A DNA stretch of 64,000 nt from an uncultured Muribaculaceae bacterium. GTDB lineage: Bacteria; Bacteroidota; Bacteroidia; Bacteroidales; Muribaculaceae. Positions within the stretch are counted from its first letter, which is position 1. Each line of letters opens with the position of its first letter. The translations under genes and the position numbers were made by a program. The stretch covers positions 37,597 to 101,596 of the forward strand of contig CAMWJS010000003.1 in assembly GCA_947174635.1 (NCBI GenBank), written 5' to 3'. This document shows, piece after piece, positions 6,749 to 58,800 of this stretch. The notes beneath the pieces are model-generated. The model had not been told where the DNA came from and did no database searches. It saw only the letters and a list, made by a program, of their open reading frames with translations.

Positions 6749-6821
6749 GGCGATTTAGTGTAGTGGCCTAGCACGCCACCCTCTCACGGTGGAGACCCGG
6801 GTTCGATTCCCGGATTCGCTA
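6749..6821 (+). tRNA. tRNA-Glu (anticodon CUC)
   Basis: Cloverleaf folded by hand. Acceptor stem is ggcgatt/attcgct (one T-T mismatch). D-arm is gtgt-agtggccta-gcac. Anticodon stem ccacc/ggtgg has loop ct-CTC-ac. The variable loop is 4 nt and the T-arm is ccggg-ttcgatt-cccgg. No encoded CCA. Confidence 0.8.
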
Positions 6822-6829
6822 CTCGGCAG

Positions 6830-37508: not shown

Positions 37509-37527
37509 TGGTGCAGTTAACATATTT

Positions 37528-37598
37528 TATAGGGGTGCTCCTTTACGGGCTGAGATCATACCCTTTGAACCTGATCCGGGTAATACCGGCGTAGAGAA
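37528..37598 (+). ncRNA. TPP (THI-box) riboswitch
   Basis: Contains the hallmark elements in the canonical order: aggggtgc...ctgaga...accctttgaacctgatccgggtaataccggcgtag. It lies 10 bp upstream of the TonB-dependent receptor start. Confidence 0.92.
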
Positions 37599-37607
37599 AT
37601 AAAACAA

Positions 37608-39884
37608 ATGGAAAAATTGTCAGTCATGACGATTGCTGCAATAGCCGGCTGCATGCCGGTATTGGCAGCAAATGAGACGACTGTTGCGGTAATCGATACC
37701 GATACAGTCCAGTCAGTCAACCTCGCCGAGGTTGCAGTAGTGGCCCAGCGGGCCGATTCAAAGACTCCGGTCGCATTTACCAATGTCACCGGTAAGGAAA
37801 TCGAACGAATCAACCAAGGCGTCGATATTCCTTACCTGCTGTCTATGACGCCATCGGTAGTGACAACATCTGATGCCGGAGCCGGAATAGGGTATAGTTC
37901 CATACGCATCCGCGGCACAGACGGTTCGCGTATCAATGTCACCACTAATGGTGTGCCCGTCAATGATTCGGAGAGCCACAATGTCTATTGGGTCAATCTC
38001 CCGGATATCGCATCATCGGTAAAGGATTTTCAGGTACAGCGCGGAGCCGGTACGTCGACTAATGGAGCCGGCGCATTCGGCGGCTCAATCAATATGGTCA
38101 CCGACGCGCCGTCGCGTGAGCCGTATGCCTCATTCAGCGGTTCATACGGAATGTATAATACGCATAAGGAGACTATAAAAGTCGGCACCGGAATTATGGG
38201 CGGTCATTGGGCTGCCGAAGCCCGTCTGTCAAATATCGGAACGGACGGATATATCGACCGGGCCACGGCAGATATGTATTCATATTTCGCCCAGGTTGGA
38301 TATTATGCAGGAGCATCGTCCATACGCCTTCTGGCTTTCGGAGGGAAGCAGCGCACATACATGGCCTGGGACTATGCGACAAAAGAGCAGATGGAAAAAT
38401 ATGGCCGTCGCTATAACCCTTGTGGAGAATATACCGACAAAGACGGCAACGTAGCCTACTATCCAAATCAGTACGACAACTACATACTTCATAATTTCCA
38501 GTTGCTTGCCCGACACCGGTTTACATCGGCGCTCTCTCTTGACGTCGCTTTGCACTACACAAAAGGTGACGGATACTATGAACAGTATAAGACCAAGCGT
38601 TCTCTTGTGGAATACGGGTTGTCGCCATTTGAAATTACTGTGACAAATCCTGATGGGTCGCAGTCTGTCCAGACAGTAAAAAAGACCGATCTCGTGCGTC
38701 TCAAAAAAATGGACAACGGATTCGGGGGCGGCCTTTTCAACCTGTCATATACATCAGGACGAGTGAGTGCTGTTGTCGGGGGAGCATTAAACGCATATCA
38801 CGGACGTCATTTCGGACAGGTCGCGTGGTTGCGCAATTACGTCGGTGAAATCAATCCTCTTCAGGAATATTACCGAAACACCGGCCATAAAATCGACGGC
38901 AATATATATGCGCGTGCCAAAGTAAGCCTCTATGACGGACTTTCGGCGTATGCCGACCTCCAGTACCGTCACATTTATTATACCATAAAAGGCATTTCTG
39001 ACACGTACAATTATAACACCGGCGAGATGGACCGGATTGCCATAGACAGAACATTTGATTTTTTCAATCCTAAAATTGGCGTAAATTATCTGTTCGACAG
39101 TAAGCACCGCGCGTTTGCATCGTGGTCGGTAGCGCATAAAGAGCCTACCCGCAACAACTTCATTGACTGCGCTCCCGGACGTCCTCCGAAGGCAGAGCGA
39201 TTGTTCGATTACGAAATAGGGTACAACTATATCGGCAATATTCTGACAGCCGGCATTAATCTCTACTACATGGATTACAAGGACCAGCTTGTTGCTACAG
39301 GACAATTGTCCGATACCGGAAATTCAGTTTCGGAGAATGTCCCGGCAAGTTATCGTGCCGGCATTGAGCTTCAGTTCGGATTAAAACCTTGCAGATGGTT
39401 TGATTGGAGCGTCAATGCTACCCTTTCCCGCAACCGTATAAAGGATTTTGTCGAATATATCTATGATGACAACGACTATACAAGCCATATCACTGTCAAT
39501 CATGGCTCGACCCGCATATCGTTCTCTCCCGATTTCATTCTCAACAATGCATTCAATTTTGAATGGCGTGGATTTGACGCATCTTTACAGTCGCACTATG
39601 TGTCACGTCAGTATATGACAAATTCCGAACAGAAAGACCAGTCGCTTGATGCCTATTTCGTCAGCAATCTCCTGCTTGGATACACATTCCGTATGCAAGG
39701 CTTAAAAAATGTAAGAGTCGGACTCTCTGTCAACAACCTGTTCAGCGAGAAATATGAGAACAACGGTTACGCCGGCTCGGGATATTATGTCGACGATGCA
39801 GGAGACAAGGTAATATATCACTACTCGGGTTATTCCGCACAGGCACCCGTGAATGTGATTGGTTCGGTCTCCGTCAATTTCTAA
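37608..39884 (+). CDS. TonB-dependent receptor (thiamine-regulated outer-membrane transporter)
   Basis: 758 aa with a signal peptide, a plug domain (..IRIRGTDGSRINVTTNGVPVND..), a long beta-barrel and a terminal ..SVSVNF. It is directly controlled by the TPP riboswitch. Confidence 0.9.
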   Translation: MEKLSVMTIAAIAGCMPVLAANETTVAVIDTDTVQSVNLAEVAVVAQRADSKTPVAFTNVTGKEIERINQGVDIPYLLSMTPSVVTTSDAGAGIGYSSIRIRGTDGSRINVTTNGVPVNDSESHNVYWVNLPDIASSVKDFQVQRGAGTSTNGAGAFGGSINMVTDAPSREPYASFSGSYGMYNTHKETIKVGTGIMGGHWAAEARLSNIGTDGYIDRATADMYSYFAQVGYYAGASSIRLLAFGGKQRTYMAWDYATKEQMEKYGRRYNPCGEYTDKDGNVAYYPNQYDNYILHNFQLLARHRFTSALSLDVALHYTKGDGYYEQYKTKRSLVEYGLSPFEITVTNPDGSQSVQTVKKTDLVRLKKMDNGFGGGLFNLSYTSGRVSAVVGGALNAYHGRHFGQVAWLRNYVGEINPLQEYYRNTGHKIDGNIYARAKVSLYDGLSAYADLQYRHIYYTIKGISDTYNYNTGEMDRIAIDRTFDFFNPKIGVNYLFDSKHRAFASWSVAHKEPTRNNFIDCAPGRPPKAERLFDYEIGYNYIGNILTAGINLYYMDYKDQLVATGQLSDTGNSVSENVPASYRAGIELQFGLKPCRWFDWSVNATLSRNRIKDFVEYIYDDNDYTSHITVNHGSTRISFSPDFILNNAFNFEWRGFDASLQSHYVSRQYMTNSEQKDQSLDAYFVSNLLLGYTFRMQGLKNVRVGLSVNNLFSEKYENNGYAGSGYYVDDAGDKVIYHYSGYSAQAPVNVIGSVSVNF

Positions 39885-42188: not shown

Positions 42189-44903
42189 ATGAAAAGAGTT
42201 TATACTTTTGGCGACGGAAAAGCTGAAGGCAATGCCGGAATGAGAAACATTCTCGGAGGCAAAGGCGCCAACCTCGCTGAGATGAATTTGTTGGGCATGC
42301 CGGTCCCTCCCGGTTTTACCATCACTACCGAAGTGTGCAATGAGTACACCCAATATGGCAAAGACGAAGTCGTAAAACGCATCAAAGACGATGTAGAGAA
42401 GGCGATCGCACACGTAGAGAGCCTCACCGGCAAAAAATTTGATGACTCTACAAATCCGCTGCTCGTATCTGTTCGCTCGGGCGCACGTGCCTCAATGCCC
42501 GGCATGATGGACACCGTGCTCAACCTCGGTATGAACGACGCTACTGTGGCTTCTCTCGCAGAAAAAAGCGGCAATCCCCGCTTCGCATGGGACAGCTACC
42601 GTCGTTTCGTACAGATGTATGGCGACGTGGTACTCGGCATGAAGCCCAAGAGCAAAGCCGACATCGATCCGTTCGAAGCCATTATGGAGAAAGTCAAAGA
42701 AGAAAAAGGTGTAAAACTTGACACCGAGCTCGATGTTGAAGACCTCCAGGCTCTCGTTCGTCTATTCAAAGCCGCAGTAAAAGATTTCACAGGCAAAGAC
42801 TTCCCCGACAGCGCATGGGAACAGCTCTGGGGCGGCATCTGCGCCGTGTTCGACAGCTGGATGAACGAACGCGCCATCATCTACCGCCGCATGAACCAGA
42901 TACCCGAAGAGTGGGGTACTGCTGTCAACGTTCAGGCTATGGTATATGGCAACATGGGCAACAATTCAGCTACCGGTGTTGCATTCTCTCGTGACGCAGC
43001 AACAGGCGAAAACATATTCAACGGCGAATATCTTATCAATGCACAGGGAGAAGACGTCGTTGCCGGTATCCGCACTCCGCAGCAGATCACCGTTGAAGGC
43101 TCACGCCGCTGGGCTGCCCTTCAGGGTATATCTGAAGAAGAACGTGCTGCCAAATATCCTTCACTCGAAGAGTCGATGCCCGTATGCGCAGCTGAACTTA
43201 TCGCTATCGCAAACCGTCTTGAAGACTACTATCGCGATATGCAGGATATGGAATTCACCATTCAGGACGGCAAGCTCTGGATGCTCCAGACCCGTAACGG
43301 CAAACGTACCGGTGCTGCTATGGTCAAAATCGCCATGGACCTCCTCCGCGAAGATAAAATTGACGAAAAGACAACCCTCATGCGCATGGAGCCCCAGAAA
43401 CTCGACGAGTTGCTCCACCCCGTATTCGACAAGGCTGCTCTCAAGCGTGCGAAAGTAATGGCCAAAGGTCTTCCCGCATCTCCGGGTGCAGCTACCGGCC
43501 AGATTGTATTCTTCGCCGATGAAGCAGAAGCTTGGGCAGAAAAGAAGAAAAAAGTTGTTCTTGTACGTATAGAGACTTCACCTGAGGACCTCCGCGGTAT
43601 GGCCGTGGCTCAGGGTATCCTTACCATGCGTGGCGGTATGACCTCACACGCAGCCGTTGTTGCCCGCGGTATGGGTAAATGCTGCGTATCAGGTGCAGGT
43701 GAAATCAAGGTTGACTATGAGCAGAAAACCGTTGAAATGGGAGGCAAAGTCTATAAGGAAGGTGACTGGATTTCGCTCAACGGTTCGACCGGTGAAGTTT
43801 ACGACGGTCAGGTTCCGACTGCTGAACCCGAACTCGACGGCGACTTCGGCGCAATCATGAACCTCGCTGCAAAATATACAAAAACACTCGTCCGCACCAA
43901 CGCCGACACTCCCCGCGATGCCAAACAGGCACGTCACTTCGGCGCCCAGGGTATCGGTCTGTGCCGCACCGAGCACATGTTCTTCGAAGGCGACCGTATC
44001 AAGGCCGTGCGTGAAATGATTCTTGCATCTGATGAGGAAGGCCGTCGTCACGCACTCGACAAACTCCTTCCCATGCAGCGCGGCGACTTCGAAGGTATCT
44101 TCGAGGCAATGAACGGCTACGGTGTAACTATCCGTCTCCTCGATCCCCCGTTGCACGAATTCGTACCCCACCAGACTGCCACTCAGAAAGAACTGGCCGA
44201 CGAAATGGGCATCACACTTGCCGAAGTCAAAGCCAAAGTTGACTCGCTCGAAGAATTCAACCCCATGCTCGGTCACCGTGGTTGCCGTCTCGGTATCACA
44301 TTCCCCGAAATCACCGAGATGCAGACACGTGCCATCATCGAGGCAGCTCTCGCATGTAAAGCACGCGGCATCGACGTTCACCCCGAAATCATGATACCTT
44401 TGGTAGGTTCACTCAAGGAAATCCAGAACCAGGCAGATATCATCAATATCACTGCAGCCAAGGTATTTGAGGAAAAAGGACAGAGCCTGCCTTACCTCGT
44501 AGGTACAATGATTGAAGTACCCCGCGCAGCTCTCACCGCCGACCAGATCGCAACCGTTGCCGACTTCTTCTCGTTCGGTACCAACGACTTGACCCAGATG
44601 ACATTCGGCTTCTCACGCGATGACGCGCCCAAGTTCCTCAAATTCTACAAAGAGCACGGCATCATCAAGACCGATCCGTTCGAAGTTCTCGATCAGGAAG
44701 GCGTAGGCCAGCTCGTAGAAATGGGTGTCAAGAAAGGCCGTTCGACCAAACCCGAACTCAAAGTAGGTATCTGCGGCGAGCACGGCGGCGAACCCTCGTC
44801 AGTCAAGTTCTGCGCTAAACTCGGCATGAACTACGTAAGCTGCTCACCCTTCCGCGTGCCCATCGCCCGCGTAGCCGCGGCGCAGGCAGCGATTGAAGAG
44901 TAA
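42189..44903 (+). CDS. ppdK: Pyruvate, phosphate dikinase
   Basis: 904 aa with an ATP-grasp N-terminus, the phospho-histidine motif GGMTSHAAVVARG and a PEP-utilising C-terminal TIM barrel (GICGEHGG). Confidence 0.96.
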   Translation: MKRVYTFGDGKAEGNAGMRNILGGKGANLAEMNLLGMPVPPGFTITTEVCNEYTQYGKDEVVKRIKDDVEKAIAHVESLTGKKFDDSTNPLLVSVRSGARASMPGMMDTVLNLGMNDATVASLAEKSGNPRFAWDSYRRFVQMYGDVVLGMKPKSKADIDPFEAIMEKVKEEKGVKLDTELDVEDLQALVRLFKAAVKDFTGKDFPDSAWEQLWGGICAVFDSWMNERAIIYRRMNQIPEEWGTAVNVQAMVYGNMGNNSATGVAFSRDAATGENIFNGEYLINAQGEDVVAGIRTPQQITVEGSRRWAALQGISEEERAAKYPSLEESMPVCAAELIAIANRLEDYYRDMQDMEFTIQDGKLWMLQTRNGKRTGAAMVKIAMDLLREDKIDEKTTLMRMEPQKLDELLHPVFDKAALKRAKVMAKGLPASPGAATGQIVFFADEAEAWAEKKKKVVLVRIETSPEDLRGMAVAQGILTMRGGMTSHAAVVARGMGKCCVSGAGEIKVDYEQKTVEMGGKVYKEGDWISLNGSTGEVYDGQVPTAEPELDGDFGAIMNLAAKYTKTLVRTNADTPRDAKQARHFGAQGIGLCRTEHMFFEGDRIKAVREMILASDEEGRRHALDKLLPMQRGDFEGIFEAMNGYGVTIRLLDPPLHEFVPHQTATQKELADEMGITLAEVKAKVDSLEEFNPMLGHRGCRLGITFPEITEMQTRAIIEAALACKARGIDVHPEIMIPLVGSLKEIQNQADIINITAAKVFEEKGQSLPYLVGTMIEVPRAALTADQIATVADFFSFGTNDLTQMTFGFSRDDAPKFLKFYKEHGIIKTDPFEVLDQEGVGQLVEMGVKKGRSTKPELKVGICGEHGGEPSSVKFCAKLGMNYVSCSPFRVPIARVAAAQAAIEE

Positions 44904-44927: not shown

Positions 44928-44969
44928 CATAGGCGGTATGTCCTGATAATAAAGGATATACCGCCTATG
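44928..44969 (+). terminator. ppdK terminator hairpin (last recognisable host feature before the mobile element)
   Basis: cataggcggtatgtcc (44928-44943) pairs with ggatataccgcctatg (44954-44969) with one mismatch. Confidence 0.65.
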
Positions 44970-45118: not shown

Positions 45119-46615
45119 ATGGCAATACTGACTGTCTGCGTAAACAAGCAGCGCAAAAGAAAGGATGGTTGCTACTCGGTTTATATCCGGGTAGCCCACA
45201 ATGGCAAATCTGTCTATATACCCACCGACAAGGTTGTAGGTACTAAGGGGCTGTCCTCCTCAATGGAGGTAATAGACCCGTTCGTCTTGAAACCTCTGTC
45301 ATCGCAAATCGTGACATGGCTCGATACCTTGAACCGGCATGACATCTCAGCGTGGACAGCACGACAGGTCGCGGATTTTCTAAAAAACCAGAATGAGGAT
45401 TTGATATTCTCGGACTATGCCCGCAAACACATTGACCGACTAATCGACAACGGACAGGAGCGCAGCGCGAAGAATTACAAACTTGCACTTCAGCACATGG
45501 AGCGTTACTTTGGTACCACCAACGTGAAATTTGCGCAGCTCACATCCGTGAACGTCAACAAGTGGTTAGCCACGTTGAGCGGGACGGCGAGGGCAAAGGA
45601 GATGTATCCTGTGTGCATCCGTCAGATATTCCGTGCCGCCATAGACGAGTTGAACGACTACGACAACGGCATTATCCGGGTAAAGACTAATCCGTGGGGA
45701 AAGGTCAAGATACCTGCCGCCGACCGCCCCAATAAGAAAGCAATCACCGCCGAGGCTTGCAGGGCTTTCTTCGCGGCCCCGTTGCCTGAAAGCAAGATGA
45801 CCGACCCTCTGCCGGAGTTGGGACGTGATGTTGCAATGATGTCATTGTGTCTGGCCGGTATGAATACAGTTGACATTTACAACCTGCGCAAAGAGGACTA
45901 CCACGGAGGCATCATCCACTACAAGCGGGCCAAGACCACCAGAAGCCGCCGCGATGACGCATACATCGAAATGCGGGTGCCGGAGGTGATAAAGCCTTTG
46001 TTCGACAAATACAGAGCTGATTACCATACCGACCGCCTGTTTCGTTTCTGCGACCGCTTTTCGACCTCGGACAGTTTTTGCGCCAATGTCAACACAGGCA
46101 TCAAGAAAATCTGTGAGGAAATGGGAATGACCGACCCGAAAAAACGTTACTGTGTCTATACGTTCCGTCACACATGGGCGACCACAGCGCAGAATGACTG
46201 CGGGGCCACACTCGCGGAGGTTGGCTTTGCGATGAACCACTCGCACGGTTACACAATCACTCGCGGATATGTGCGCCCCGACTTCACACCGGCATGGGAG
46301 TTGAACGAGAAAGTGATTGATTTTATCTTCTTCAGCGATGCGACCTCGCGGCGCGTGGCGCAGGAGAAGCCGGAGGAAGAAGGGCTGTTCCGTCTTTCGC
46401 CAAAGATGCTCATCCGTGCGGCGGCATTTTTTCAAGGCAAGTGTCTGGCCAACTTTGAGGACATCGGCTATTCAAACATCGAGGAAGTGACAAAGGCTCT
46501 TGTTGCACAATTCCCTGTTGATATTCCCGACCGCTCGATGGTACAGTTCAAAATCGTGAACCTCGACAATGGCAAGGTTCACGTTTATGAGCATCAGAAG
46601 GGCAAGGGATTTTAG
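45119..46615 (+). CDS. Tyrosine-type site-specific integrase (Bacteroidota phage-integrase family) with ~90-aa C-terminal extension
   Basis: 498 aa. The N-terminal arm-binding-like region (CVNKQRKRKDGCYSVYIRVAHNGKSVYIPT) and the catalytic box YTFRHTWATTAQ ... HSHGYTITRGYV fit the family. 114 aa follow the putative catalytic Tyr. Confidence 0.88.
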   Translation: MAILTVCVNKQRKRKDGCYSVYIRVAHNGKSVYIPTDKVVGTKGLSSSMEVIDPFVLKPLSSQIVTWLDTLNRHDISAWTARQVADFLKNQNEDLIFSDYARKHIDRLIDNGQERSAKNYKLALQHMERYFGTTNVKFAQLTSVNVNKWLATLSGTARAKEMYPVCIRQIFRAAIDELNDYDNGIIRVKTNPWGKVKIPAADRPNKKAITAEACRAFFAAPLPESKMTDPLPELGRDVAMMSLCLAGMNTVDIYNLRKEDYHGGIIHYKRAKTTRSRRDDAYIEMRVPEVIKPLFDKYRADYHTDRLFRFCDRFSTSDSFCANVNTGIKKICEEMGMTDPKKRYCVYTFRHTWATTAQNDCGATLAEVGFAMNHSHGYTITRGYVRPDFTPAWELNEKVIDFIFFSDATSRRVAQEKPEEEGLFRLSPKMLIRAAAFFQGKCLANFEDIGYSNIEEVTKALVAQFPVDIPDRSMVQFKIVNLDNGKVHVYEHQKGKGF

Positions 46616-46833
46616 AGTTTTGTCAAGTCAATGGAAACGAAGCGACCGCCGGCCGATGCCAAAGAGTTGATTTCACCGTATGTGAGGGTGCCGCTTTCTA
46701 CAATGATTGTCAGCACCCCATTTTCCATAGCCCTTGCCTTATTGACAAGCGAGAGAAGCTCGGAGTATCGCAGAGCGGAGCCGATAGTGACGTTTGCAAC
46801 GCCGGCAATGTTTTTGAGTTCTGAGAATGTCAT
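46612..46833 (-). CDS. Small hypothetical protein, paralog A
   Basis: 73 aa, convergent with the integrase and overlapping it by 4 bp. It aligns without gaps to the neighbouring ORF (shared ..LTxxEIxxLxxxGGxxV....K). Confidence 0.5.
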   Translation of the reverse strand: MTFSELKNIAGVANVTIGSALRYSELLSLVNKARAMENGVLTIIVESGTLTYGEINSLASAGGRFVSIDLTKL

Positions 46834-46853: not shown

Positions 46854-47081
46854 TCAGTCGGAAAATTTCATGTCGGGGAACGCAACATGTGGGCCTCCTT
46901 TTTCACAGAGCAATTGAATTTCCGCTACTGTAAGGCGTTCTGTTTTCAGCAGACTTATTTTGCCACCGCCTTTGCAGGCTGCTTCAACGAACGATTGCGC
47001 CTGACCGAATGGCATGTGGTCGACCTCGAGATTGAACTCCCCGCCCATTGAGAGGGCGTACTTCATTTGTTCTTTTGTCAT
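46854..47081 (-). CDS. Small hypothetical protein, paralog B
   Basis: About 75 aa from ATG 47081 (MTKEQMKY..); the track ORF extends to 47111. A TAtcTTTG -7 box on the minus strand (complement of 47109-47116) lies 28 nt upstream of this ATG. Confidence 0.5.
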   Translation of the reverse strand: MTKEQMKYALSMGGEFNLEVDHMPFGQAQSFVEAACKGGGKISLLKTERLTVAEIQLLCEKGGPHVAFPDMKFSD

Positions 47082-47108
47082 GAACTGTTGTATTTGAATT
47101 TTCAATTG

Positions 47109-47116: not shown

Positions 47117-47353
47117 ATCCGCAGTTCCGTCTTTAAAACGTTATCTTTTGAGCCATACCAAATCGGCGTGGCTCTTTTTCTTTTTCGCGCAACTTTTTCT
47201 TTTTCTCCCTCCTTCCATCTGATTGGCGAAGCCTCAAAAAAAAGAAAAATTTTCCTCGCGTGTGTACGTACGCGCGCATCGACGAGAATAATAACTCTTT
47301 AGAGTTATTTTCTTTTATAGAAATACGTTAGTATTTCTTTTTATCAAAAGAAA

Positions 47354-47484
47354 GGTTTCGGAAGAAATGCCCTTTTCTTCCGAAGTTTTCCGAATTTATA
47401 GCAATAACTTCCGAAATAATTGGAATAACTTCGGAAGAAATAGCAATAACTTCGGAAGTTATTCTAATAAATGGGGAAGGAATT
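47354..47484. repeat. Iteron array 1: six TTC(S)GAA palindromic cores phased 21-10-21-21-21 bp
   Basis: Cores start at 47357 (TTCGGAA), 47378, 47388, 47409 (TTCCGAA), 47430 and 47451 (TTCGGAA). The array ends with ataaatggggaaggaatt. It is homologous position-by-position to array 2, which lies 223 bp downstream. Confidence 0.9.
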
Positions 47485-47576
47485 TTACGCGAAATTTGCC
47501 CGAAAACAGCCATTTTTGAGGGGTAAAAATGACTCTGTTTTTACAATAAAAAATCAAAAAGGGAATTTATGCCCTT

Positions 47577-47707
47577 AATTTCGGAAGAAATAGGGATTAT
47601 TTCGGAAGTTTTCGGAATTTATTCGCATAATTTCGGAAAGAATAGCAATAACTTCGGAAAGAATCGGCATAACTTCGGAAGTTATTGCTATAAATGGGGA
47701 AGGAATT
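47577..47707. repeat. Iteron array 2: six TTCGGAA cores with identical 21-10-21-21-21 bp phasing
   Basis: Cores start at 47580, 47601, 47611, 47632, 47653 and 47674. The 21-bp unit consensus is TTCSGAARNAATNGCAATAAC. The array ends with the same ataaatggggaaggaatt tail. Confidence 0.9.
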
Positions 47708-47720
47708 CCGAGAATGAAAA

Positions 47721-47745
47721 ATGCCGAGCGAGATGCCCGGCATGT
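47721..47745 (-). terminator. Terminator-like hairpin downstream of the 133-aa gene
   Basis: atgccg (47721-47726) / cggcat (47740-47745). On the minus strand the hairpin is followed by ttttcatt. Confidence 0.45.
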
Positions 47746-47775: not shown

Positions 47776-48177
47776 TTATTTGTCGTTTTCGGCGGCGAGC
47801 TGCGCAAGGCGCTGCTCTATTGTGGTGGTGATGTCGCCCGACAACGACACCTCGGCTGACACGGACTGCATCTGTGGTGTGTGGTAGCGCAGCAGTTTTT
47901 CGTGGATGGTTGCGCGGTCTTTGGCTTCCATCATCATCATATCAACTTCGAAATCGGAAACGACAAGCGGATTGCCGTCGGCGTCTTGCAGCATGACGGT
48001 GTTGTATAGTTCGCCCTCTTTGGTCCTAAGCTCTAATGTGCGTGGTGTGCCGTCCCCATTCGTCTGTGGCCGTGGTGCAAAGTAGGCCATGGAATGGGCG
48101 CGTAAATGCTCTTTGAGGGGACTGGGTTTGTTGGGAGTGCCTTTTTGTCGGCCTCCGGTTTTTCTTCCTTGTGCCAT
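47776..48177 (-). CDS. Hypothetical small basic-N-terminus protein (candidate DNA-binding/regulatory protein of the element)
   Basis: 133 aa. The N-terminal motif MAQGRKTGGRQKGTPNK is a basic GRxKGxxNK-type motif common in phage and mobile-element DNA-binding proteins. A TAccTTTG -7 box lies 27 nt upstream on the minus strand. Confidence 0.6.
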   Translation of the reverse strand: MAQGRKTGGRQKGTPNKPSPLKEHLRAHSMAYFAPRPQTNGDGTPRTLELRTKEGELYNTVMLQDADGNPLVVSDFEVDMMMMEAKDRATIHEKLLRYHTPQMQSVSAEVSLSGDITTTIEQRLAQLAAENDK

Positions 48178-49870: not shown

Positions 49871-52800
49871 ATGACAAACGACAACAAGCAAAAACTATAT
49901 AACGCCCTTTCTCGGGATTATGAGTTGGGGACATTCGAGAAATTCTGTACGGATATCGATGACAGTGTAAAGCGACGTAAATTATTTGATGCTGCTTCAC
50001 AGGACTACGAACTGGGCTCTTGGGAAAGCTTTTCCAAGCAGTTAGGTTATACCGATTCAACACAGGAGGCTCCTCTAATTTCATCAATAGTCAGAAAAGT
50101 GGAGGAACAGGCAAAGCAGCATGTCAGTGTTACGTCGGCCGCTTCGGGGAATGCCGGCGCCAACGTATCGGCCGAGGCTTCCGAGCAAGCCGCGCCTGCA
50201 GAGGCCGCGCCGGTTGATCGGGGGCAACAGTCCTGGATGCCGTCCGTGCAGGATAGGGTCCGTGCATCATATCAGATGCAGACAGTTGCGGACGGGTTGA
50301 GCCACCGTGCGGATGAAGGCGCAGCAAAAGTGGGGCGTATCAATGAACCGTTGACCGCCGAGGGCAGGGAGCACAGGAAGCAGAAAGAGATGGAAGCGCG
50401 GATGGCCGGAGCGCCAACAACGTTGCTGGGTCTGACGGGACCGTCTAAAGCGAAAGCGGATGAAGAAAAGAGCTCTGCGCCGACCGAGAAAGCGGAGTTG
50501 CGTCCTGATGTCATGTCGCCTGTGCCGTATGGCGTGGAGTATGTCGACGGCAAGGCTGTTACCAAATGGCTGATGCCCGACGGCAGCGTGACAACGAATA
50601 TGGCTGAGGCCGACGCAGTTGAATATACCGCAAGGCAGCAACGACTTCATGACACCTATCTGAAGAATACAAAAGATATAAGCATAGACATCCCGAAGGA
50701 GAAGTCTATACGTGTAGGCGTATCTGAGTCTTACGGCAAACCTGTTATAATTTGGCGGTTGCCGGATGGTAGTCTTAAAAAAAGCTATGCAACGCCCGAT
50801 GATGAGAAATTCATTAAGGAAAATCAGGAAAAGTTTGATGAATTTGGCGGAAATTTAATCTCTTATAAATTTAATCAGGAGGCAGCAGATATCGTACAAC
50901 CCAAAGCGAAAGAAGCAGCGGAACAAGCGTGGAAAGCAGCAGAAGCAGCTTACGGAGAGAAGATGGAGTACAATCGAAGGAATTCGAACATCTGGTTGAG
51001 TTCAGCGGGAAATAGTACGGATGCCGCCTCAATTAAGCAGCTGGAGACTATTGATAATTTCACTGACAGGCTTACCACTCATGATCTGGATGCTCTGATG
51101 GATGCGGCATGGTCCAACCTCGGTGAGGCAGGGCAAAAATCTCTCATCGATGATTGCTATAAGATATTGCAACGTCAAAATCCTGAAACAGACAAGATTG
51201 CTTTATACAATCTTGCTAAAGATTATGCCCGTCAACAGTCTGATAAATCGCTATATAATCTTGCCGTAGAGAAAAACATGCCGAAAAATGGTCTTGACTA
51301 TTTTATGCGTAAAATTAGTGACATGAATTTTGTTACCAATTTAGGCAAGGGAATTGCTGTCAATCGTGTGAAGAAAACCGGCGACATGGCAGCTTACGAA
51401 GCAGCCAACGAACAATACCGACAGGACGGTCACAAGATACTTGACGTGACCGGCATGGTTGCAGGTTTCGCTTTCGACCCTACGACATGGTTGTCGGCAG
51501 GTGTCGGCGGTGCTGCGACGCGCGGCACAATGTGGCTCGGCGGTCGTTGGATGGCAGGACGCGGCGCAAGTACAGCCGTTAAACAAGCCGCCACGCGTCA
51601 ATTTGCAAACACAATGACAGGTCGCCTTGTCGGTGGTGTTGTCGGAGGCTCTGTCAACTTCGGCACCTTTGAAGGTACCAAGGAATTGGAGAACCAATTT
51701 GCACATGGCGGCCATATAGTCGGGCAGGATGAAACAGGTCGATATATCAACGAAGGCTATTCTGCATCAGCTGTAGGAGGTCAGGTGCTTCACGGTCTCG
51801 GCATGGGTGCAGCCATCGGTTGGCTCGGTCCCGTTACAGGCAACGTATCCGACAAACTTGTCAGAGCGACAACAAGCACATTGGGCAAGGTCGCCACTCG
51901 CGCGGGTATCTATACGGGTGCCACAATTGCTGAGGGTACAATTTTCTCTATCCCCGAATGGATAGAGGGTGGGCGTGACGGCTTCGATGTGTGGACTGAC
52001 AACATGGCCATGATGGCCGGTTTCAAAGCTAAGCACATGGTAAAGAGTGCCGGTGGTATCCTGAGAGACCTCAAAGCATCTTTTGAAAGCCCCTCCAACG
52101 GAAGCAAGAACCGCTTGAACTTTGAGAGCTGCCTGCGGCAGCGCATGGATGCGCCATCTGACGGAGGTCTTGCACTGACAAAGGATGAGCAGGCCGAGCT
52201 GCAGCGTTATGGCTATGACCTGCGCGACCTTGTGGAGAGTGCAGAGCGCACCGGCAACGCCAAAGAGGGCGGTATTATCGCACAGAACGCGCCCGAAATC
52301 GTCAGCCGACTTACTGATATGGTAACCGATCCGCGTGTCAGCGAAGCGGCAAGAGCTAAGATGTATTACTACGCTACAGGCCGTAAGCTCCCGATGTCAA
52401 CCGTGATGCGTGGCGAACTGTTTGAGGACGGCAACGGAGGCTTCGTTGTAGAATCGCTGGGTGCCAACGGTGTCATCACCTCACGCTCATTTACGAATCG
52501 CAAAGCCGCCGACCTCGAATTGGAGCGCATCAGACGACAGTCAGAACTCAATCAACTTGAACTTGGTGAGCGGTATCAGCCCATTGCAGACTTTGAGAGC
52601 CGCATGATGGAGGCGAGCCGCAGAGTGGCCGCAAATCATGGTTGGAATCCTGTTGATGTATATAAGACCTGTGAAGATGTCCTTGATTCATATGTGCGTG
52701 GCAACAATAAAGAGTTGTCGGACGTGCAAAAGAATATATACAACAAGATACTTGCCGAGTTGGATAAAATCGAGGTATCAGATTTAGCGACCGAGAAGCG

Positions 52801-55800
52801 CACAAGAATCAACGCCAAATATGATGTTGATATTGACAAAGCAATACGGAAAGAGCCTAATAGACGCACTGAGGCAGAGCAGAAAGCAATTGATGAGTAT
52901 ATTGCCGAGCTGATGCCCCGTCGAAATTCGGGGAACGGAATGTTTGACGAAGCGGGACAGCGACTATTGCCCGCAGAAGGAGAGCCACGGGATGTAGAGG
53001 ATGTCAATTACAGAGAGGCGGATGAAACCGGACAGACAATAGAGCATCGTTTTAAGGATGATTATGATTTTGTAGGAGTAGAACCCCACAAGTCCGCAGA
53101 GCAGCCATTAGGCCGTGCGGTGATGAAATACCAAGACCGTCAGGTCGAGGTGTTGGACGGTCGTGTGGTGATGACAGGTGACGGTACTATGATTGACTGC
53201 GAGCGCAGCGAGAAAACCATCGTCGTTCGCGATATTGCCACCGGCAAGGTCGAGATGGTTTCGCCTGAGGCGATACTGTCGTATGAGGGGTATGCAGACG
53301 AAGGAGAATTGCTGGACGCTCCGATTTCTCCAGAAAGTCCTTCCGTGGGAGAGTCAGTAGGGGCAGAGTCAACAGGGGCAATCTCCGCTGCGCCCAATTA
53401 TGATCTATACGATACATTCAGCGTGAATATAGAGGGGCGCGACCGTCCGTTGCCGGCTGCAGTAGTGGAACGCGACGGCAATACCATCACTATATGGACA
53501 CCTGAGGCAGTCAATCAGGCGAGTGCCAAAAGTCGCACAATGCGCGGTTATCTTACAGACTTGACATCTGCAGACCTTGATGCAATTTTACAGCGTGACG
53601 CAGAGGGTAACCCCGTGGGGTATGTTTCCGCCAATCCTCCGCAAGAGACAGAGGCCCGGACGGACCTTTCCCATACTCCTGTTGACGGGCAGGGACAGCC
53701 TAAGCATGAAGAAGCCGGTTCTGATGCAGCACCGGATGTCATTGCAGGACAGGCGCAGGTGGACGAGGCGACGGCGACCGCCGACACAGCCGAATATGAC
53801 CGGGGCTATGAGCAGGGATTGGAAGACGCTGCAAAGGCTGATGACGCATGGATTGCGAACCTTATCAAGATATACAGCCAAAACACGCCCGAATCAATGC
53901 CCGAGATCATGAAAGGTCGGTTGGATGCATTCCTCTATGAGCAACAGCGCAGGGCAATGGAAGCGCAGAGCGTTCCCAATCCCGCCGCTCCAGTAGAAAA
54001 CGGACAGCAAACGGCCGATGATGGCTTCATCTCCATTGACCCTGCAATCAAGCCTGATGAGAATGGGAATATAAATATACCTGCCCCCGAAGCACAGGCG
54101 GAGCCGACCCCCCTGCAGCGTATCCCGCGTGATGAGCAGGGGGAGCCGATATTGACGCATGAGAGTGTCGATGCGGATACCGCGTGGGGCGGTGCTGTCG
54201 AATTCTTCGGTAGCGAAGACGACGCACGTTCGTATGTTGACGCTCAGGTAAAAAGTTCAGAGGCGGCCATAACAGCAGCGGAAAAGGCGGTCGGAAAAGT
54301 AAAGCCGACGGCCGGAATGACAAAATATCGCGAAGATCTAAAGAATGCGCGCGTAGCTGTAGATGCCGCCAAGTCGACTCTTGCCAGATGGAAGGAGATT
54401 GCAGAGGTGCATGACCGGCAGAAAGCGGAGGTCGAGGAAGCCAAGGCTGCGGAGAATGCATTCAAGGCGTCGATAACCCAAGGAAAGGCCGAGCTTGAGC
54501 ATGCATACGAGGAGGTGAAAGATGTGCCTGAGGCTGTCGAGATACTCCGGAATATGGAGCCGCAGAGCATAGACGAGGTTGCGGCGATGCTGCTTACCGG
54601 AAGCAAGGTGCTATGGAATGACGAGGGTGTGAAGCGTGGAATGAAGAGCATGCTGGGATATGGCGAGGGTGAACGGAAAGGATTGTTCGGTCTGTTCGCT
54701 GCGTCGAAAAACGGAGGTGAGACGCTGGAGCGCCTTGCTGAGGATAAGATGAAAGAGTTATGTGAAGCATACGGCATCGAGTACGACAACTACGATGCGT
54801 TGACGGCATTGACCGATGTGCTTGGAGCCTGCAGGACACGGGGCGACTTGCATAAGTACATACAGAACCGTCGTATCGCACAGGCGCTGCAGATGAAAGA
54901 TGACTTTGTACGTCATGTGGAAAAAGAGGCGGAAAGGATGTCGCAGGAGGCATACCATATGTCGGTTGCCGACCGGGAGGCATACGAGAGTCAGTTGCCG
55001 GACGAGATGAAGAAAATAGATATGAAAGATGCGGATATAGTGGAAATGAATGCTATATTTGCAGATGAAATCATAGAAAGGCAGAGATATGAAGAAAATA
55101 TCAGAAATGAGCAAGGACGAGCTGATAGCGTATTACCGGCAGGCTCAGACGTATTGCATGGAGAACAGGCTGATTACGGCGGAGGAATTCCGGAAACTTC
55201 GGCAGGAGAAAGGCGAATTGGGGGCGATGGCGGCGTTGATAGGCAGAATGGAGCTGCACCGGAAAGCACACCCGACAGAGAGCAAGGGAATGTAATAGAG
55301 GAAGCATATCAGAGAAATGTAACGAGATATGACCGGACTGTGCCTGCTACCCCTGAGGCACAGCGCTCGGCTATTTCCCGCATCATAGACTTTGCTAAAA
55401 ACGTAAGGAATCGCGTTGAGCGTGCCGTTATTGGCGGTATAACCAAGCGGCAGGCCAAAGATTTTGCGGATAATGGCATAGATGTGGATGAAACGTGGGT
55501 GCACTCATTCGAGTCCTCGGCGGTTGTTCATAATCAAGGTCGGCATGGAGACTCTCGTACCGAAGAACGCGCAGGCCAGATTGCCATTACTTCCGAAGAT
55601 TATGCGCGTATACCCGAAATACTTGAAGCCTATGACCGAGTGACAAAATCGCCGAACCGCTCACGCAGTACTGGTAATGAGGTCATTATTTATGAAAAGG
55701 ACTTTGATGATGGCTATATCTACTATTTGGAAGAGAAAAGGGATAAGCGTAAATCCTTATCATTCCAAACAATGTACAAAAAGAAAAAAGGAACTGATAG

Positions 55801-58800
55801 TTCCGACGGGTTGATGCCTGTTGCCTCTCCCTCTACGCCCACAGCGCCTCCGGACAATCTCAGTTCCAGTTCTGAGGGCAAAGGTATAAACTTTGCGTCA
55901 GATAAACAAACGGACGGCGTAGGAAGTTATGTACAACCTGCTGACAACAAGGGTGCGCAGACCATTCAGACCGCTGTTGAGGCTGCATCTTCCGAGGTAA
56001 ACACCGAACCTACCGAGGCACAGAAAGCCGCAGGCAACTACAAGATGAAACACCGCCGTGTTGACGGCTACAACATCAGTATCGAGAATGCCAAAGGCAG
56101 TGTGCGCCGTGGTACCGGAGCAGACGGAAAGCCGTGGGAAACCACGATGCAGAATGACTACGGCTATATACGAGGAACCGAGGGTGTGGACGGCGACCAC
56201 ATTGATGTTTTCCTGTCGGACACCCCCGAAAAGGGAGATGTGTTTGTCGTCGACCAGGTTAACGAGGACGGCTCTTTTGACGAGCATAAGGTAATGTATG
56301 GCTTTCCCTCGGAGGAGGCCGCACGCGCAGCGTATCTTTCCAACTATGAACCAGGATGGACGGGACTCGGCGAAATAACTCATGTCAGCAAGGATGAGTT
56401 TAAAAAATGGATTAATTCGAGTAGACGCAAGACTAAGCCCTTTGCTGACTACAAAAGCGTTCGTGACATCACTAATAATGTAAAGCAGGCTATTCAGGAG
56501 ATATTAGTCTCAGACAATTACAGAGCAGTCGTAGTTACCGACTCGTCGGGAAAAGAGACCTATAGAGTTCTATTAAACAAAGGGGCTCGTAAAAAAGAGT
56601 GGCAGATAAAGTCGGAGTTACATAACGGCCACTATAGTTCTGATGGTTATGGAACTCTCATATTCTCAAGTCGAAATGACATGGAGGCATGTCTTGACGA
56701 TAGGGATGCAGACATTGATATCCTGAATAAACGTTTGCTCAGAAAGGATGATGAAAATCGCCGTAAGAAGAGAACAGAGTGGAAGGCCTCAATGCTTGAG
56801 AAAATAAAAGGAATGTCGACTGAAGACCTTCGACATAACATTGAACTTTACGACAAAGCACCAGACCGCCGACATGATGAGGAAAAGGAGGTAATCGATG
56901 CCGCTCGCCAAGAGTTGAGGCTTCGCGATGCCGCGGTGAAAGATGCGACGGATGATTCAGCCGAAATCACGCGACTGAGTAAGAAATACCGGTCAGCACC
57001 TATAAAGGTTGTCAAATCAATTGAGGATATTAAATCAGATGATCTCTCGGAAGATACATTGGAAGAGATTGCCGGAGCTATGGAAGAGGCAGAAACTCAG
57101 GCAATCTACTGCAAAGAGAATAAAAAAATATATATCTTTGCGGGTAAGTATCAGGATGGCGAGCTCGATTACATTGTAGCTCATGAAAGTGTGCACGCAG
57201 CAGTGGACAAACTTGGGCTAAGAAATGGAGAAGAGCTAAATTATTACCGTAAATCTATTGCAGGTATTTTCGACAATGAAGCTCCAGCGGAATTAAACAA
57301 GATCATCTCAGAGAAATATGCACCAGAAGATGAGGATGAGGAGTTTTTGGCTTATACTCTCCCATGGATTAGCCGAAACAAAAAGCGTATGCGTAAGGTA
57401 CTTGAACACGGTGAGGGCAGACTGGTAGATTTTATAAATCAATTAAACGAAGAGATATATGGAAAAGAAGAGATACAATCAATGCTCTCCGCCACTGAGG
57501 AGAGAACTCCTACTAATGTTCATGGGGGACGAGGAGGACAGGTTCGAGGACGAAGAGGAACAGCCGGAACCATCACAGGAGACGACTCAGGAGGAGACGC
57601 CGACACCGGAAACCGACAGATAGAAGATTTCGGGGAGAAGATAGCGGGGGCGCGCAAAGATGCACTTAGTGCATTTGCCAAGACGATAGAGAATGTGTCG
57701 GTGCAGTCATTGATAGAGCTTCCGATGTCAAAGGCCTTTACCCGTCCTAATCTTCGAAAGATGGTGGAGACGGGCGCTATCAGCGACGAAGATGCCATTC
57801 TTGCTGAGGCTATACTTCAGGGGCAGATTTATGCGCATCGGAAGCCTGCGCTCACCAAGCGGCAGAGCAGCAAAAAAGCCGTAGAGGAATGGGCGAGAGC
57901 CACCTATGGCGGCATATCAATGCTCGGCGAGATATTGAGCGGAGACCCTTCACGTCGTGAGGCGGCTATCTTGCAGTATAATGAAAGGCTTGCGGCAGAG
58001 CTCGAAGCTGCCAATGCCCATGTGGCCAAGATGCGCGAGTGGAATCCAGGCAAAAAAATTGAGGATGTCAAAGCGATACCCAATCCCATCGATATAACGC
58101 GAAGGGTGCTTGAGGGTATCGGTTATCATGTGGGAGATGCAGTTAAACTGCCTCTGACAAATATCGAGCTAAGTTCTAACAAACAATACTACATAGTCGG
58201 AAGTGCCGGCAAGCAGGGCGCATTATGGTTCAAGATGCACCATGACACACTTGATGGGGCGGTAGACACAATGATAATGGCGGCCAAGCTTGCACGTGGA
58301 GACCGCGATGTGGAGCTGCCGTTGCGACAGTTTGTGACAAAAGGCGTAGGGACCCCGCATAAAGAGCTGACCGGCAAATATGAGGTGTTGTATTTTGCCA
58401 AAGATGGCAAGACTGTCAAGAGCCGAGTGTTTGACGGTAAGGACAAAGCCGAGGTATTTGCCGCTGACAGCAAGGGATTGATGAGGGAGTTGGTGAAATA
58501 CACCAATGACTTTGACGCATACGCTATTGAAGCAATCAATCCATTGACAGGAGAACGGCATACGTTGCGCGACGATTTCGGCAGCCGAGCCGAAGCATCG
58601 ACGTGGATAGATGAGTCGTATGAGGAAGCCAATAATCTTGCTCTTGATGCGCTGTACAAAGAGATGAATGTCGAATCGACGCCACGCAGTCATTACTATG
58701 TGGAGTCCGTGTTCCGTCACGGCAAGATGGTTGGAAGGGTAGTCGAGGACGACAAGAAAAATCCGTGGCGCCTCACCAAGTATTTTGAGAGTCGCAAAGA

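What the first reader, a model, noticed from the sequence alone, without database searches (positions are those of the whole stretch)
47354..47707. Twin 131-bp iteron arrays with helical-phase spacing flanking an AT-rich core: candidate replication origin or nucleoprotein assembly site
Each array contains six copies of the odd palindrome TTC-S-GAA embedded in a 21-bp unit (consensus TTCSGAARNAATNGCAATAAC). The core-to-core spacing is identical in both arrays at 21-10-21-21-21 bp, i.e. two helical turns, so the sites lie on one DNA face. Cores are at 47357/78/88/409/430/451 and 47580/601/611/632/653/674, with arrays offset by exactly 223 bp. In array 1 the three central cores carry the opposite central base (TTCCGAA versus TTCGGAA). 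That is the same palindromic site flipped, as expected for a dimeric binder indifferent to the central base pair. Both arrays end in the identical tail ataaatggggaaggaatt. An AT-rich stretch lies between them (gtttttacaataaaaaatcaaaaag, 47537-47561). Iterons flanking an AT-rich unwinding element is the classic architecture of plasmid and phage origins. Centromere-like (parS) or pac-type sites are alternatives. The two ORFs listed across the arrays are translation artefacts of the repeats.
Basis: seen in the sequence. Interest (0 to 1): 0.72.

Follow-up and report, generated by a model that had tools for sequence, protein, structure and literature searches.

The report
Prophage replication origin: twin iteron arrays
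The two repeat arrays are real and are most likely the replication origin of a gut Bacteroidales (Muribaculaceae-type) prophage, because related phages carry the same 21-bp-spaced motif inside their replication-initiator gene instead: an ordinary kind of element, but not previously described for this phage group.

Summary
There are 12 exact TTCSGAA cores at the stated coordinates, with spacing 21-10-21-21-21 in both arrays. Each array also has a seventh, degenerate unit in phase (TGGGGAAGGAAT).

The arrays lie in a 690-bp non-coding gap near the left end of an integrated ~64-kb temperate phage. They sit between the integrase module and the virion and ejection-protein genes. Twin or single arrays of the same motif, in 10.5/21-bp phase, occupy the same position in more than 30 related phage and prophage contigs, including Bacteroides phage BS-TP4.

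The key evidence is comparative. Related phages that lack the arrays (BKO1-TP3 and relatives) carry 1-4 copies of the same motif (ATTTCTTCSGAAGAA), 21 bp apart where repeated. These copies sit inside the Lin1244_N/DUF4373 replication-initiator gene, at the boundary between the N-domain and the linker, and are followed by an A-rich tract. This is the lambda "ori inside the O gene" layout.

In 21 genomes where both loci could be read, the two arrangements were mutually exclusive. The same A-rich element also follows the intergenic arrays of single-array relatives.

Best reading (about 0.75): this is an iteron-type origin bound by the phage initiator, relocated out of the initiator gene and duplicated. 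attP arm sites, a par centromere and a pac site each failed a defining test. No binding or origin activity was tested. It is a new member of a known kind, of moderate interest.

The parts
47354..47490 (.). Iteron array 1. Six TTCSGAA cores (47357, 47378, 47388, 47409, 47430, 47451) plus a degenerate seventh unit TGGGGAAGGAAT at 47472. Spacing 21-10-21-21-21-21.
   Evidence: Conserved in position and phase in relatives.
47577..47713 (.). Iteron array 2. Six TTCGGAA cores (47580, 47601, 47611, 47632, 47653, 47674) plus a degenerate seventh unit at 47695. It is a 223-bp-offset duplicate of array 1.
   Evidence: The twin arrangement recurs in window-type relatives and, separately, in BS-TP4.
47485..47576 (.). 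Inter-array spacer. It has A/T tracts at 47503, 47513, 47525, 47538, 47548 and 47556, spaced about 10-13 bp apart (probably bent DNA). It includes the 84% A+T stretch at 47537-47561. Its right part (aaaaatcaaaaagggaatttatgccctt) duplicates the left flank of array 1.
   Evidence: The spacer is conserved in type among relatives.
47286..47353 (.). A+T-rich flank (81% A+T) next to array 1 on the integrase side, and a candidate DNA-unwinding element. It matches, in position, the A-rich tract AAAGT(A/G)CACAAAGTAAAGTAAA that follows the iterons in single-array relatives and inside initiator genes.
   Evidence: inference from position and composition.
47257..47278 (.). Conserved alternating purine-pyrimidine tract CGCGTGTGTACGTACGCGCGCA bordering the origin region. 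Its role is unknown.
   Evidence: Present in window-type phages, BS-TP4 and single-array relatives; absent from the gene-internal origins.
47721..47743 (-). Terminator-like hairpin ending the 133-aa gene, so the arrays lie outside that transcript.
47776..48177 (-). Neighbouring 133-aa gene of unknown function (invariant N-terminal KTGGRxxGTPNK). It is a syntenic marker for the locus and is not shown to act on the arrays.
45119..46615 (+). Prophage tyrosine integrase (context). The origin lies between its 3' side and the virion-gene module.
44929..44968 (.). attL-associated hairpin (the ppdK terminator), shared with the attP region upstream of int in BS-TP4 and BKO1-TP3 (context). It shows that the arrays are not att arm sites.

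Best explanation
The twin arrays are the replication origin of an integrated temperate phage of a Muribaculaceae-type host.

**Proposed mechanism.**
- Each 21-bp unit (core TTCSGAA or TGGGGAA followed by GAAAT) is an iteron for the N-terminal DNA-binding domain of the phage's Lin1244_N/DUF4373-type initiator (replisome organizer). That gene lies at the far end of the prophage, outside the window.
- With sites every two helical turns, initiator molecules line up on one face of the DNA across about 14 sites.
- The bent, A/T-tract-rich spacer lets the two arrays form one higher-order complex.
- An adjacent A+T-rich stretch melts (47286-47353 and/or 47537-47561).
- A phage-encoded DnaC-like loader or helicase then brings in the replicative helicase.

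**Proposed history.** In this lineage the origin cassette sits outside the initiator gene, where several related lineages keep it. It lies in the int-virion gene gap and has been duplicated (223-bp unit).

**Shown versus inferred.** The anatomy, the conservation, the link between motif and initiator gene, and the exclusivity of the two locations are shown. Protein binding, DNA melting and origin firing are inferred.
For: 1. **Anatomy.** Fourteen phased units in two arrays sit beside A+T-rich DNA, in a gap with no conserved ORF. The gap is the int-133aa intergenic region; the window lineage alone has two extra small genes between int and the gap. The 133-aa gene ends at a terminator-like hairpin before the arrays.
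2. **Conservation.** The same locus in BS-TP4, 13 of 17 IMG/VR relatives, about 20 single-array relatives and 11 of 22 GTDB genomes carries the motif. 229 of 232 spacings are multiples of about 10.5 bp, while the flanks diverge.
3. **Gene-internal iterons.** BKO1-TP3 has the 133-aa homologue and the same virion module but no arrays. Its initiator gene gp19 holds two ATTTCTTCCGAAGA copies 21 bp apart, followed by an A-rich tract, in the linker-coding part. At least six further initiator lineages have 1-4 such copies at the same gene position: L222, L241, L247/L248, L257, L411/L421-433 and L434.
4. **Mutual exclusivity on matched genomes.**
   - 15 genomes have arrays and no iteron cluster in the initiator gene: BS-TP4, 6 twin-array contigs and 8 single-array contigs.
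   - 6 genomes have internal iterons and no arrays: BKO1-TP3 and contigs L205/L279, L210/L282, L213/L283, L228/L311 and L222/L314.
   - None has both or neither.
5. **Shared cassette.** The A-rich element after the intergenic single arrays (AAAAGTGCACAAAGTAAAGTAAAATAAATAAT) closely resembles the one after the gene-internal iterons (AAAGTACACAAAGTAAAGTAAAGGAAAG).
6. **Shared N-domain.** All motif-associated initiators share one N-domain type (GL(D/E)YFPFD(I/V)DFFQDI(K/R)IRKLIK..TVYALLLC). An initiator with a different N-domain but the same C-domain (L230 group) has different repeats (AATGTnnACATT, 21 bp apart) at the same gene position.
7. **No competing site.** The arrays are the only cluster of the motif in the whole BS-TP4 genome. 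No other repeat array lies near the replication genes of the one window-type relative examined, L122.
Against: - No experiment: binding, melting and origin activity are all inferred.
- The window does not contain the initiator gene, so the pairing rests on relatives at 82-92% identity in the neighbouring gene.
- The 21 matched genomes fall into few lineages (about three with arrays, one initiator lineage with internal iterons). Exclusivity is therefore only a handful of independent events.
- The covariation example (L230) rests on three imperfect repeats seen by eye.
- Variant iterons at the same locus (L015/L014 CGCGGAAA-type, L287 AAACGTAAGC) could not be matched to their initiators.
- Initiator-binding arrays can serve control (handcuffing) rather than initiation.
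- No DnaA box is present.
Confidence: 0.75

Rival explanations
1. The arrays bind the initiator but are not where replication starts. They would instead titrate or pair (handcuff) initiator molecules to control replication, like the incA iterons of P1 or the control iterons of plasmids. The true origin would lie elsewhere.
For: The twin, duplicated arrays have many more sites (14) than the 1-4 copies seen inside initiator genes. Control iteron sets of this kind are known (own knowledge).
Against: Phages with arrays have no iteron cluster anywhere else. The whole BS-TP4 genome was scanned, as were the replication regions of six window-type contigs. The arrays carry the same A-rich element that accompanies the gene-internal origins. 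An integrating phage has little need for copy-number control.
Confidence: 0.1
2. The arrays are a packaging (pac/cos or concatemer-junction) site. They would be recognised by a small terminase, possibly the adjacent 133-aa protein, with cleavage in the spacer. This resembles the P1 or SPP1 pac sites or the repeat arrays flanking the T7 terminal repeat.
For: - The site lies at the start of the virion-gene block, next to a small basic protein of unknown function.
- No small terminase is recognisable in BS-TP4.
- Three IMG/VR contigs end in or beside the arrays.
- One weak BFVD fold match is named 'terminase small subunit' (E = 0.043, TM 0.16).
Against: - BKO1-TP3 has the same portal, terminase and 133-aa homologue module but no arrays. 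Its only copies of the motif are inside the initiator gene.
- The large terminase gene is about 20 kb away.
- The three contig ends fall at three different positions, as expected for assembly breaks at repeats.
- The 133-aa protein has no significant sequence or fold match to any terminase.
- Divergence of the 133-aa protein does not track the motif: BS-TP4 is 36% identical yet has the same motif, while L015 is 73% identical yet has a different one.
Confidence: 0.07
3. The arrays are a centromere-like partition site (parC/parS type), or binding sites for some other regulator or nucleoid protein.
For: Two sets of phased short repeats flanking a central region resemble parC of plasmid R1 (own knowledge). 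The phage encodes an HU-like protein.
Against: No ParA/ParM or ParB/ParR gene is adjacent in the window or annotated anywhere in BS-TP4 or BKO1-TP3. The phage integrates. In BS-TP4 the arrays lie between convergent genes, and in the window beyond the terminator-like hairpin of the 133-aa gene, so no operator role is needed. This reading does not explain the motif inside initiator genes.
Confidence: 0.04
4. The arrays are a decaying, non-functional remnant of a duplicated initiator-gene linker (the ISSEE-coding repeats).
For: In one frame the arrays translate to LISEEIGIISE-like peptides, which resemble the ISSEE repeats of the initiator linkers.
Against: The motif and its helical phase are conserved across relatives whose flanks and neighbouring proteins have diverged to 36% identity. 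Reading frames across the arrays are not conserved. Arrays expanded separately in at least two lineages.
Confidence: 0.03

Closest known systems
ori-lambda inside the O gene of lambdoid phages (own knowledge of the system)
   Same: Phased iterons sit next to an A+T-rich region and are bound by the N-terminal domain of a phage initiator, which recruits the helicase through a loader. In relatives here the iterons lie inside the initiator gene, in the part coding for the inter-domain linker, exactly as in lambda. PHROGs gives the BS-TP4 initiator a weak 'replication initiation O-like' hit.
   Different: In this window the origin is outside the gene: about 12 kb away on the circular phage map and at the opposite end of the prophage. 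It has 14 sites in two arrays rather than four. The initiator belongs to the Lin1244_N/DUF4373 family, not the lambda O family.
SPP1 oriL / oriR with the replisome organizer G38P (own knowledge; SPP1 oriL is mentioned in PMC5737612)
   Same: The replisome-organizer type initiator has binding repeats that can lie inside its own gene (oriL) or at a distant site among late genes (oriR). PHROGs annotates the BS-TP4 protein as 'replisome organizer'.
   Different: SPP1 carries both sites in one genome. Here the two locations were mutually exclusive in the 21 genomes checked. The repeat sequence and host phylum are unrelated.
Iteron origins and control arrays of plasmids and phage-plasmids: P1 oriR incC/incA, P4 ori/crr, R6K, pPS10 (own knowledge)
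   Same: Directly repeated initiator sites of about 19-22 bp are phased on one DNA face. Duplicated blocks of sites occur too; the P4 crr consists of two 120-bp repeats that each carry initiator sites.
   Different: No adjacent rep gene, no plasmid maintenance genes, and the element integrates. No DnaA box is present.
parC centromere of plasmid R1 (own knowledge)
   Same: Two clusters of short phased repeats flank a central region.
   Different: No parM/parR-like genes, the repeat period is 21 bp rather than 11 bp, and the motif is linked to a replication-initiator gene.

Membership tests
Iteron-type phage replication origin (lambda-ori-like) | Several directly repeated sites of about 17-22 bp in helical phase | tested here: met
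   Fourteen units at 21-bp (and 10-bp) spacing. Phasing is kept in relatives: 229 of 232 spacings.
Iteron-type phage replication origin (lambda-ori-like) | Adjacent A+T-rich region that could unwind | tested here: met
   47286-47353 is 81% A+T and 47537-47561 is 84% A+T. A matching A-rich element sits next to the iterons in relatives. Melting itself was not tested.
Iteron-type phage replication origin (lambda-ori-like) | A cognate initiator is encoded by the same element | tested here: inconclusive
   The gene is not in the window, because the prophage runs off its end. It is present on the same contigs as the arrays in 14 relatives and in BS-TP4: a Lin1244_N/DUF4373 initiator.
Iteron-type phage replication origin (lambda-ori-like) | The repeat motif is tied to the initiator (same motif at the canonical in-gene origin position; specificity tracks the DNA-binding domain) | tested here: met
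   The motif lies inside initiator genes of at least seven lineages at the N-domain/linker boundary. It is mutually exclusive with the arrays in 21 genomes. An initiator with a different N-domain has different repeats (a weak single example).
Iteron-type phage replication origin (lambda-ori-like) | The initiator binds the repeats, and replication starts there | not testable with these tools
   This needs EMSA or footprinting, marker-frequency analysis or 2-D gels, and a plasmid origin assay.
attP / arm-type integrase sites | Repeats flank the crossover core and are split between attL and attR in the prophage | tested here: not met
   Both arrays are contiguous in the integrated state, 2.4 kb from the host junction. 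attL maps to the ppdK terminator hairpin at 44929-44968, which is shared with the region upstream of int in the free phages.
pac/cos packaging site | Linked to the terminase module, and present wherever that packaging module is present | tested here: not met
   The large terminase gene is about 20 kb away in BS-TP4. BKO1-TP3 shares the module but lacks the arrays. Contig ends near the arrays fall at different positions.
Plasmid/phage partition centromere (parC/parS) | Adjacent or co-resident partition ATPase and centromere-binding adaptor genes | tested here: not met
   None is adjacent in the window. None is annotated in the complete genomes of BS-TP4 or BKO1-TP3.

The most novel reading that the evidence does not exclude
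The origin cassette of this phage family is a mobile module that has moved between two homes: inside the initiator gene, or beside the integrase and attachment site. In this lineage it has been duplicated into a bipartite origin, whose two arrays pair across a bent spacer. Sitting next to attL, it could fire in situ before excision and amplify the adjacent host DNA (ppdK side), with consequences for lateral transduction in gut Bacteroidales.
Probability: 0.12. Interest if true: 0.65.

Novelty: new member of a known kind. Interest (0 to 1): 0.42.

Why it matters
- **First inferred origin for this group.** The result gives the first sequence-level inference of the origin and the initiator recognition motif (TTCSGAA-GAAAT, 21-bp phase) for the Lin1244_N/DUF4373 initiators. 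These initiators are common in gut Bacteroidales phages, and the literature held here describes no origin for them.
- **Testable hypothesis.** It turns the finding into a direct experiment: initiator N-domain plus 21-bp unit.
- **Possible tool.** It offers a candidate replicon part for genetic tools in Muribaculaceae and Bacteroides.
- **Natural experiment.** It documents one origin cassette found either inside the initiator gene or at a distant intergenic site.

Tried and rejected
1. **Stop-codon recoding.** This was suspected because the ORF listing showed no long ORF at 50-64 kb. It was rejected: one giant ORF of at least 4709 aa runs off the window end and is simply not listed.
2. **The 133-aa protein as small terminase or array binder.** There is no hit in Pfam, PHROGs or PDB sequence profiles. 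The single-sequence AF2 model was poor (pLDDT 53). The alignment-based model (pLDDT 73) gave no significant PDB or BFVD fold match. Two large homology searches returned only unnamed proteins.
3. **Arm-type att sites.** Rejected by mapping attL.
4. **Plasmid relatives.** None found.
5. **DnaA boxes.** None in 47.0-47.8 kb.
6. **Sigma-70 promoter scan.** Uninformative, since Bacteroidales promoters differ. Only the terminator hits were used.
7. **Matching variant iterons to their initiators.** Attempts for L015/L014 and L287 failed. Those contigs were not among the best 80 in three initiator or helicase scans. The iteron-pattern scans returned only the same locus or integrated prophages.
8. **Literature.** The paper describing BS-TP4 and BKO1-TP3 does not mention the repeats. 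No paper was found on DUF4373 origins.

Full report
**Observation.**
- The window holds 22 matches in all, against 11.8 +/- 3.9 in shuffles. Twelve lie within 324 bp, where the background rate predicts 0.056.
- Both arrays have core spacing 21-10-21-21-21 and are offset by 223 bp. They are 76-80% identical, and Tandem Repeats Finder reports period 21.
- The 'identical tail' is a seventh, degenerate unit in phase (TGGGGAAGGAAT at 47472 and 47695).
- Relatives alternate TTCGGAAGAAAT and TGGGGAAGAAAT units. The unit is therefore better described as a directional 21-bp iteron with a conserved GGAAGAAAT than as a pure palindrome.

**Context.**
- The window is a Bacteroidales chromosome carrying a TPP riboswitch, a TonB-dependent receptor and pyruvate phosphate dikinase at 42189-44903.
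- A prophage begins just after ppdK. Its tyrosine integrase is at 45119-46615. Two small minus-strand ORFs with no family hits follow.
- Next come the 690-bp gap holding the arrays and a 133-aa minus-strand gene (47776-48177).
- After that are a T7-gp14-like internal virion protein, a 399-aa ORF and a giant ORF from 49871 that runs off the window. The giant ORF is at least 4709 aa and has polyvalent-protein domains PBECR3, InPase, LPD1, LPD5 and RadC.
- Two isolated phages share this gene order: Bacteroides phage BS-TP4 and BKO1-TP3, both about 64-65 kb. Their paper does not mention the repeats.
- Relatives in GTDB genomes are Muribaculaceae, Duncaniella, Muribaculum and similar.
- The ppdK terminator hairpin at 44929-44968 is shared with the region upstream of int in both free phages. 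attL therefore lies there, and the arrays, contiguous and 2.4 kb away, are not att arm sites.

**Conservation.**
- Using the 133-aa gene as an anchor, the same locus in 13 of 17 IMG/VR relatives, in BS-TP4 and in 11 of 22 GTDB genomes carries TTCSGAA arrays.
- A further group of Bacteroides-type relatives has a single array of four or five 31-bp units.
- 229 of 232 neighbour spacings are 10, 21, 31/32, 42/43 or 52/53 bp.
- The flanks and the 133-aa protein diverge down to 36% identity while the motif and phase persist.
- In BS-TP4 the arrays lie between convergent genes. In the window they lie beyond a terminator-like hairpin of the 133-aa gene.
- The ORFs that cross the arrays are not conserved in frame or length.
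- All of this points to a cis-acting DNA site rather than a gene or a promoter.

**What the site is.**
- BKO1-TP3 has the 133-aa homologue and the same virion and packaging module, but nothing between int and that gene.
- Its only close pair of the motif is inside the replication-initiator gene gp19: two ATTTCTTCCGAAGA copies 21 bp apart, followed by an A-rich tract. They lie in the part of the gene that codes for the linker after the N-terminal domain. This is the layout of ori-lambda inside the O gene (own knowledge).
- The initiator carries Pfam Lin1244_N (DUF4373) and matches PHROGs 'replication initiation protein / replisome organizer / O-like' families.
- At least six further initiator lineages in IMG/VR have one to four copies at the same gene position, 21 bp apart where there is more than one, each followed by an A-rich tract. 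Variants include ATTTCCTCCGAAGAAATAGGC x4.
- The central base varies C/G/T in these coding copies, matching the S of TTCSGAA.

**Mutual exclusivity.** I matched the two loci on the same genome wherever both could be fetched.
- Fifteen genomes have the int-side arrays and no iteron cluster in the initiator gene: BS-TP4, six twin-array contigs and eight single-array contigs.
- Six genomes have gene-internal iterons and no arrays: BKO1-TP3 and contigs L205/L279, L210/L282, L213/L283, L228/L311 and L222/L314.
- None has both or neither.
- These genomes fall into few lineages, so the count overstates the number of independent events.

**Supporting observations.**
- The A-rich element after the single intergenic arrays (AAAAGTGCACAAAGTAAAGTAAAATAAATAAT) closely resembles the one after the gene-internal iterons (AAAGTACACAAAGTAAAGTAAAGGAAAG). 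The whole cassette, not only the short motif, is therefore shared.
- All motif-associated initiators share one N-domain type.
- An initiator with a different N-domain but the same C-domain (L230 group) has different 21-bp-spaced repeats (AATGTnnACATT) at the same position. This is one weak covariation example.
- The arrays are the only cluster of the motif in the whole BS-TP4 genome. No other repeat array lies near the replication genes of the one window-type relative examined, L122.

**Mechanism (inferred).** Initiator N-domains bind the phased units on one DNA face. The two arrays are separated by a spacer with A/T tracts every 10-13 bp and assemble into one complex. An adjacent A+T-rich stretch melts. 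This could be 47286-47353, which corresponds in position to the A-rich element of relatives, and/or 47537-47561. The phage DnaC-like loader or helicase, seen in relatives, then loads the replicative helicase. None of these steps was tested.

**Rivals.**
- Control or handcuffing arrays bound by the same initiator remain possible (about 0.1), but no other iteron cluster is available to serve as the origin.
- A pac or concatemer-junction site is disfavoured. BKO1-TP3 keeps the packaging module without the arrays, and the large terminase gene is about 20 kb away. The three contig ends near the arrays fall at different positions. The 133-aa protein has no terminase-like sequence or fold.
- A partition site is disfavoured because no par genes are present.
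- A decayed gene remnant is disfavoured because motif and phase are conserved while reading frames are not.

**Unexplained.**
- A conserved alternating purine-pyrimidine tract (47257-47278) borders the origin in all intergenic versions but not the gene-internal ones.
- BS-TP4 interleaves a second repeat (ATGTACATTTAT) with the iterons.
- Some relatives carry other iteron types at the same locus: the L015/L014 CGCGGAAA-type, which has the same 21/10-bp geometry, and the L287 AAACGTAAGC type. Their initiators could not be retrieved.

**Verdict.** It is an iteron-type phage origin, which is a known kind of element. It is paired with an initiator family whose origin is not described in the literature available here. 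It also sits in an unusual relocated and duplicated arrangement. Interest is moderate.

Noticed in passing
window 49871-64000 (+): A single giant ORF of at least 4709 aa runs off the window end, so the ORF listing omits it and the region looks ORF-free. It is a polyvalent protein with PBECR3, InPase, LPD5, LPD1 and RadC-JAB domains. The BKO1-TP3 homologue is 5553 aa and is annotated 'DarB-like antirestriction'.
   Followed up: partly
window 44929-44968: The hairpin downstream of ppdK (ATAGGCGGTATG...TACCGCCTAT) is shared with the region upstream of int in the free phages BS-TP4 and BKO1-TP3. This is the likely att core, meaning integration into the ppdK terminator.
   Followed up: partly
window 47257-47278: A 22-bp alternating purine-pyrimidine tract (CGCGTGTGTACGTACGCGCGCA) is conserved beside the origin in window-type, BS-TP4 and single-array relatives, but is absent from the gene-internal origins. 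It may be Z-DNA-prone; its role is unknown.
   Followed up: partly
window 46612-46833 and 46854-47084 (-): Two small ORFs lie between int and the origin region only in this lineage. In relatives such as L014 and BS-TP4, int is followed directly by the origin region. They have no Pfam or PHROG hit and look like inserted cargo ('moron') genes.
   Followed up: partly
window 47776-48177 (-): The 133-aa protein has an invariant N-terminal KTGGRxxGTPNK motif and 1331 homologues, all unnamed. The AF2 model (pLDDT 73) has no significant PDB or BFVD match. The protein is also present in phages without arrays. Its function is unknown.
   Followed up: yes
L002 5213-5616 (BS-TP4 63033-63436): The BS-TP4 twin arrays interleave a second repeat, (A)ATGTACATTTAT, with the TTCCGAAGAAAT iterons. 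They also contain a 74-nt exact duplication.
   Followed up: no
L015 4497-4692; L014 4497-4550; L287 ~3490-3740: The same int-side locus carries other iteron types in some relatives. L015/L014 have (G/A)TTTCCGCG-type units with the same 21/10-bp geometry, and L287 has AAACGTAAGC repeats. This suggests origin-module swapping. Their initiators could not be fetched.
   Followed up: partly
L005, L010, L011 (IMG/VR contig ends): Three viral contigs end just before, inside or just after the arrays, at different positions. This fits assembler breaks at the repeats rather than a fixed genome terminus.
   Followed up: partly
L017 4400-5188: In one relative the 133-aa gene is followed directly by what looks like a host gene, with no arrays or int. 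It is probably a truncated or rearranged prophage.
   Followed up: no
window 37521-37615 and 6749-6822: A TPP riboswitch (Rfam, 71.9 bits) lies upstream of a TonB-dependent receptor gene. A tRNA-Glu(CTC) gene is also present. Both are ordinary host features.
   Followed up: no
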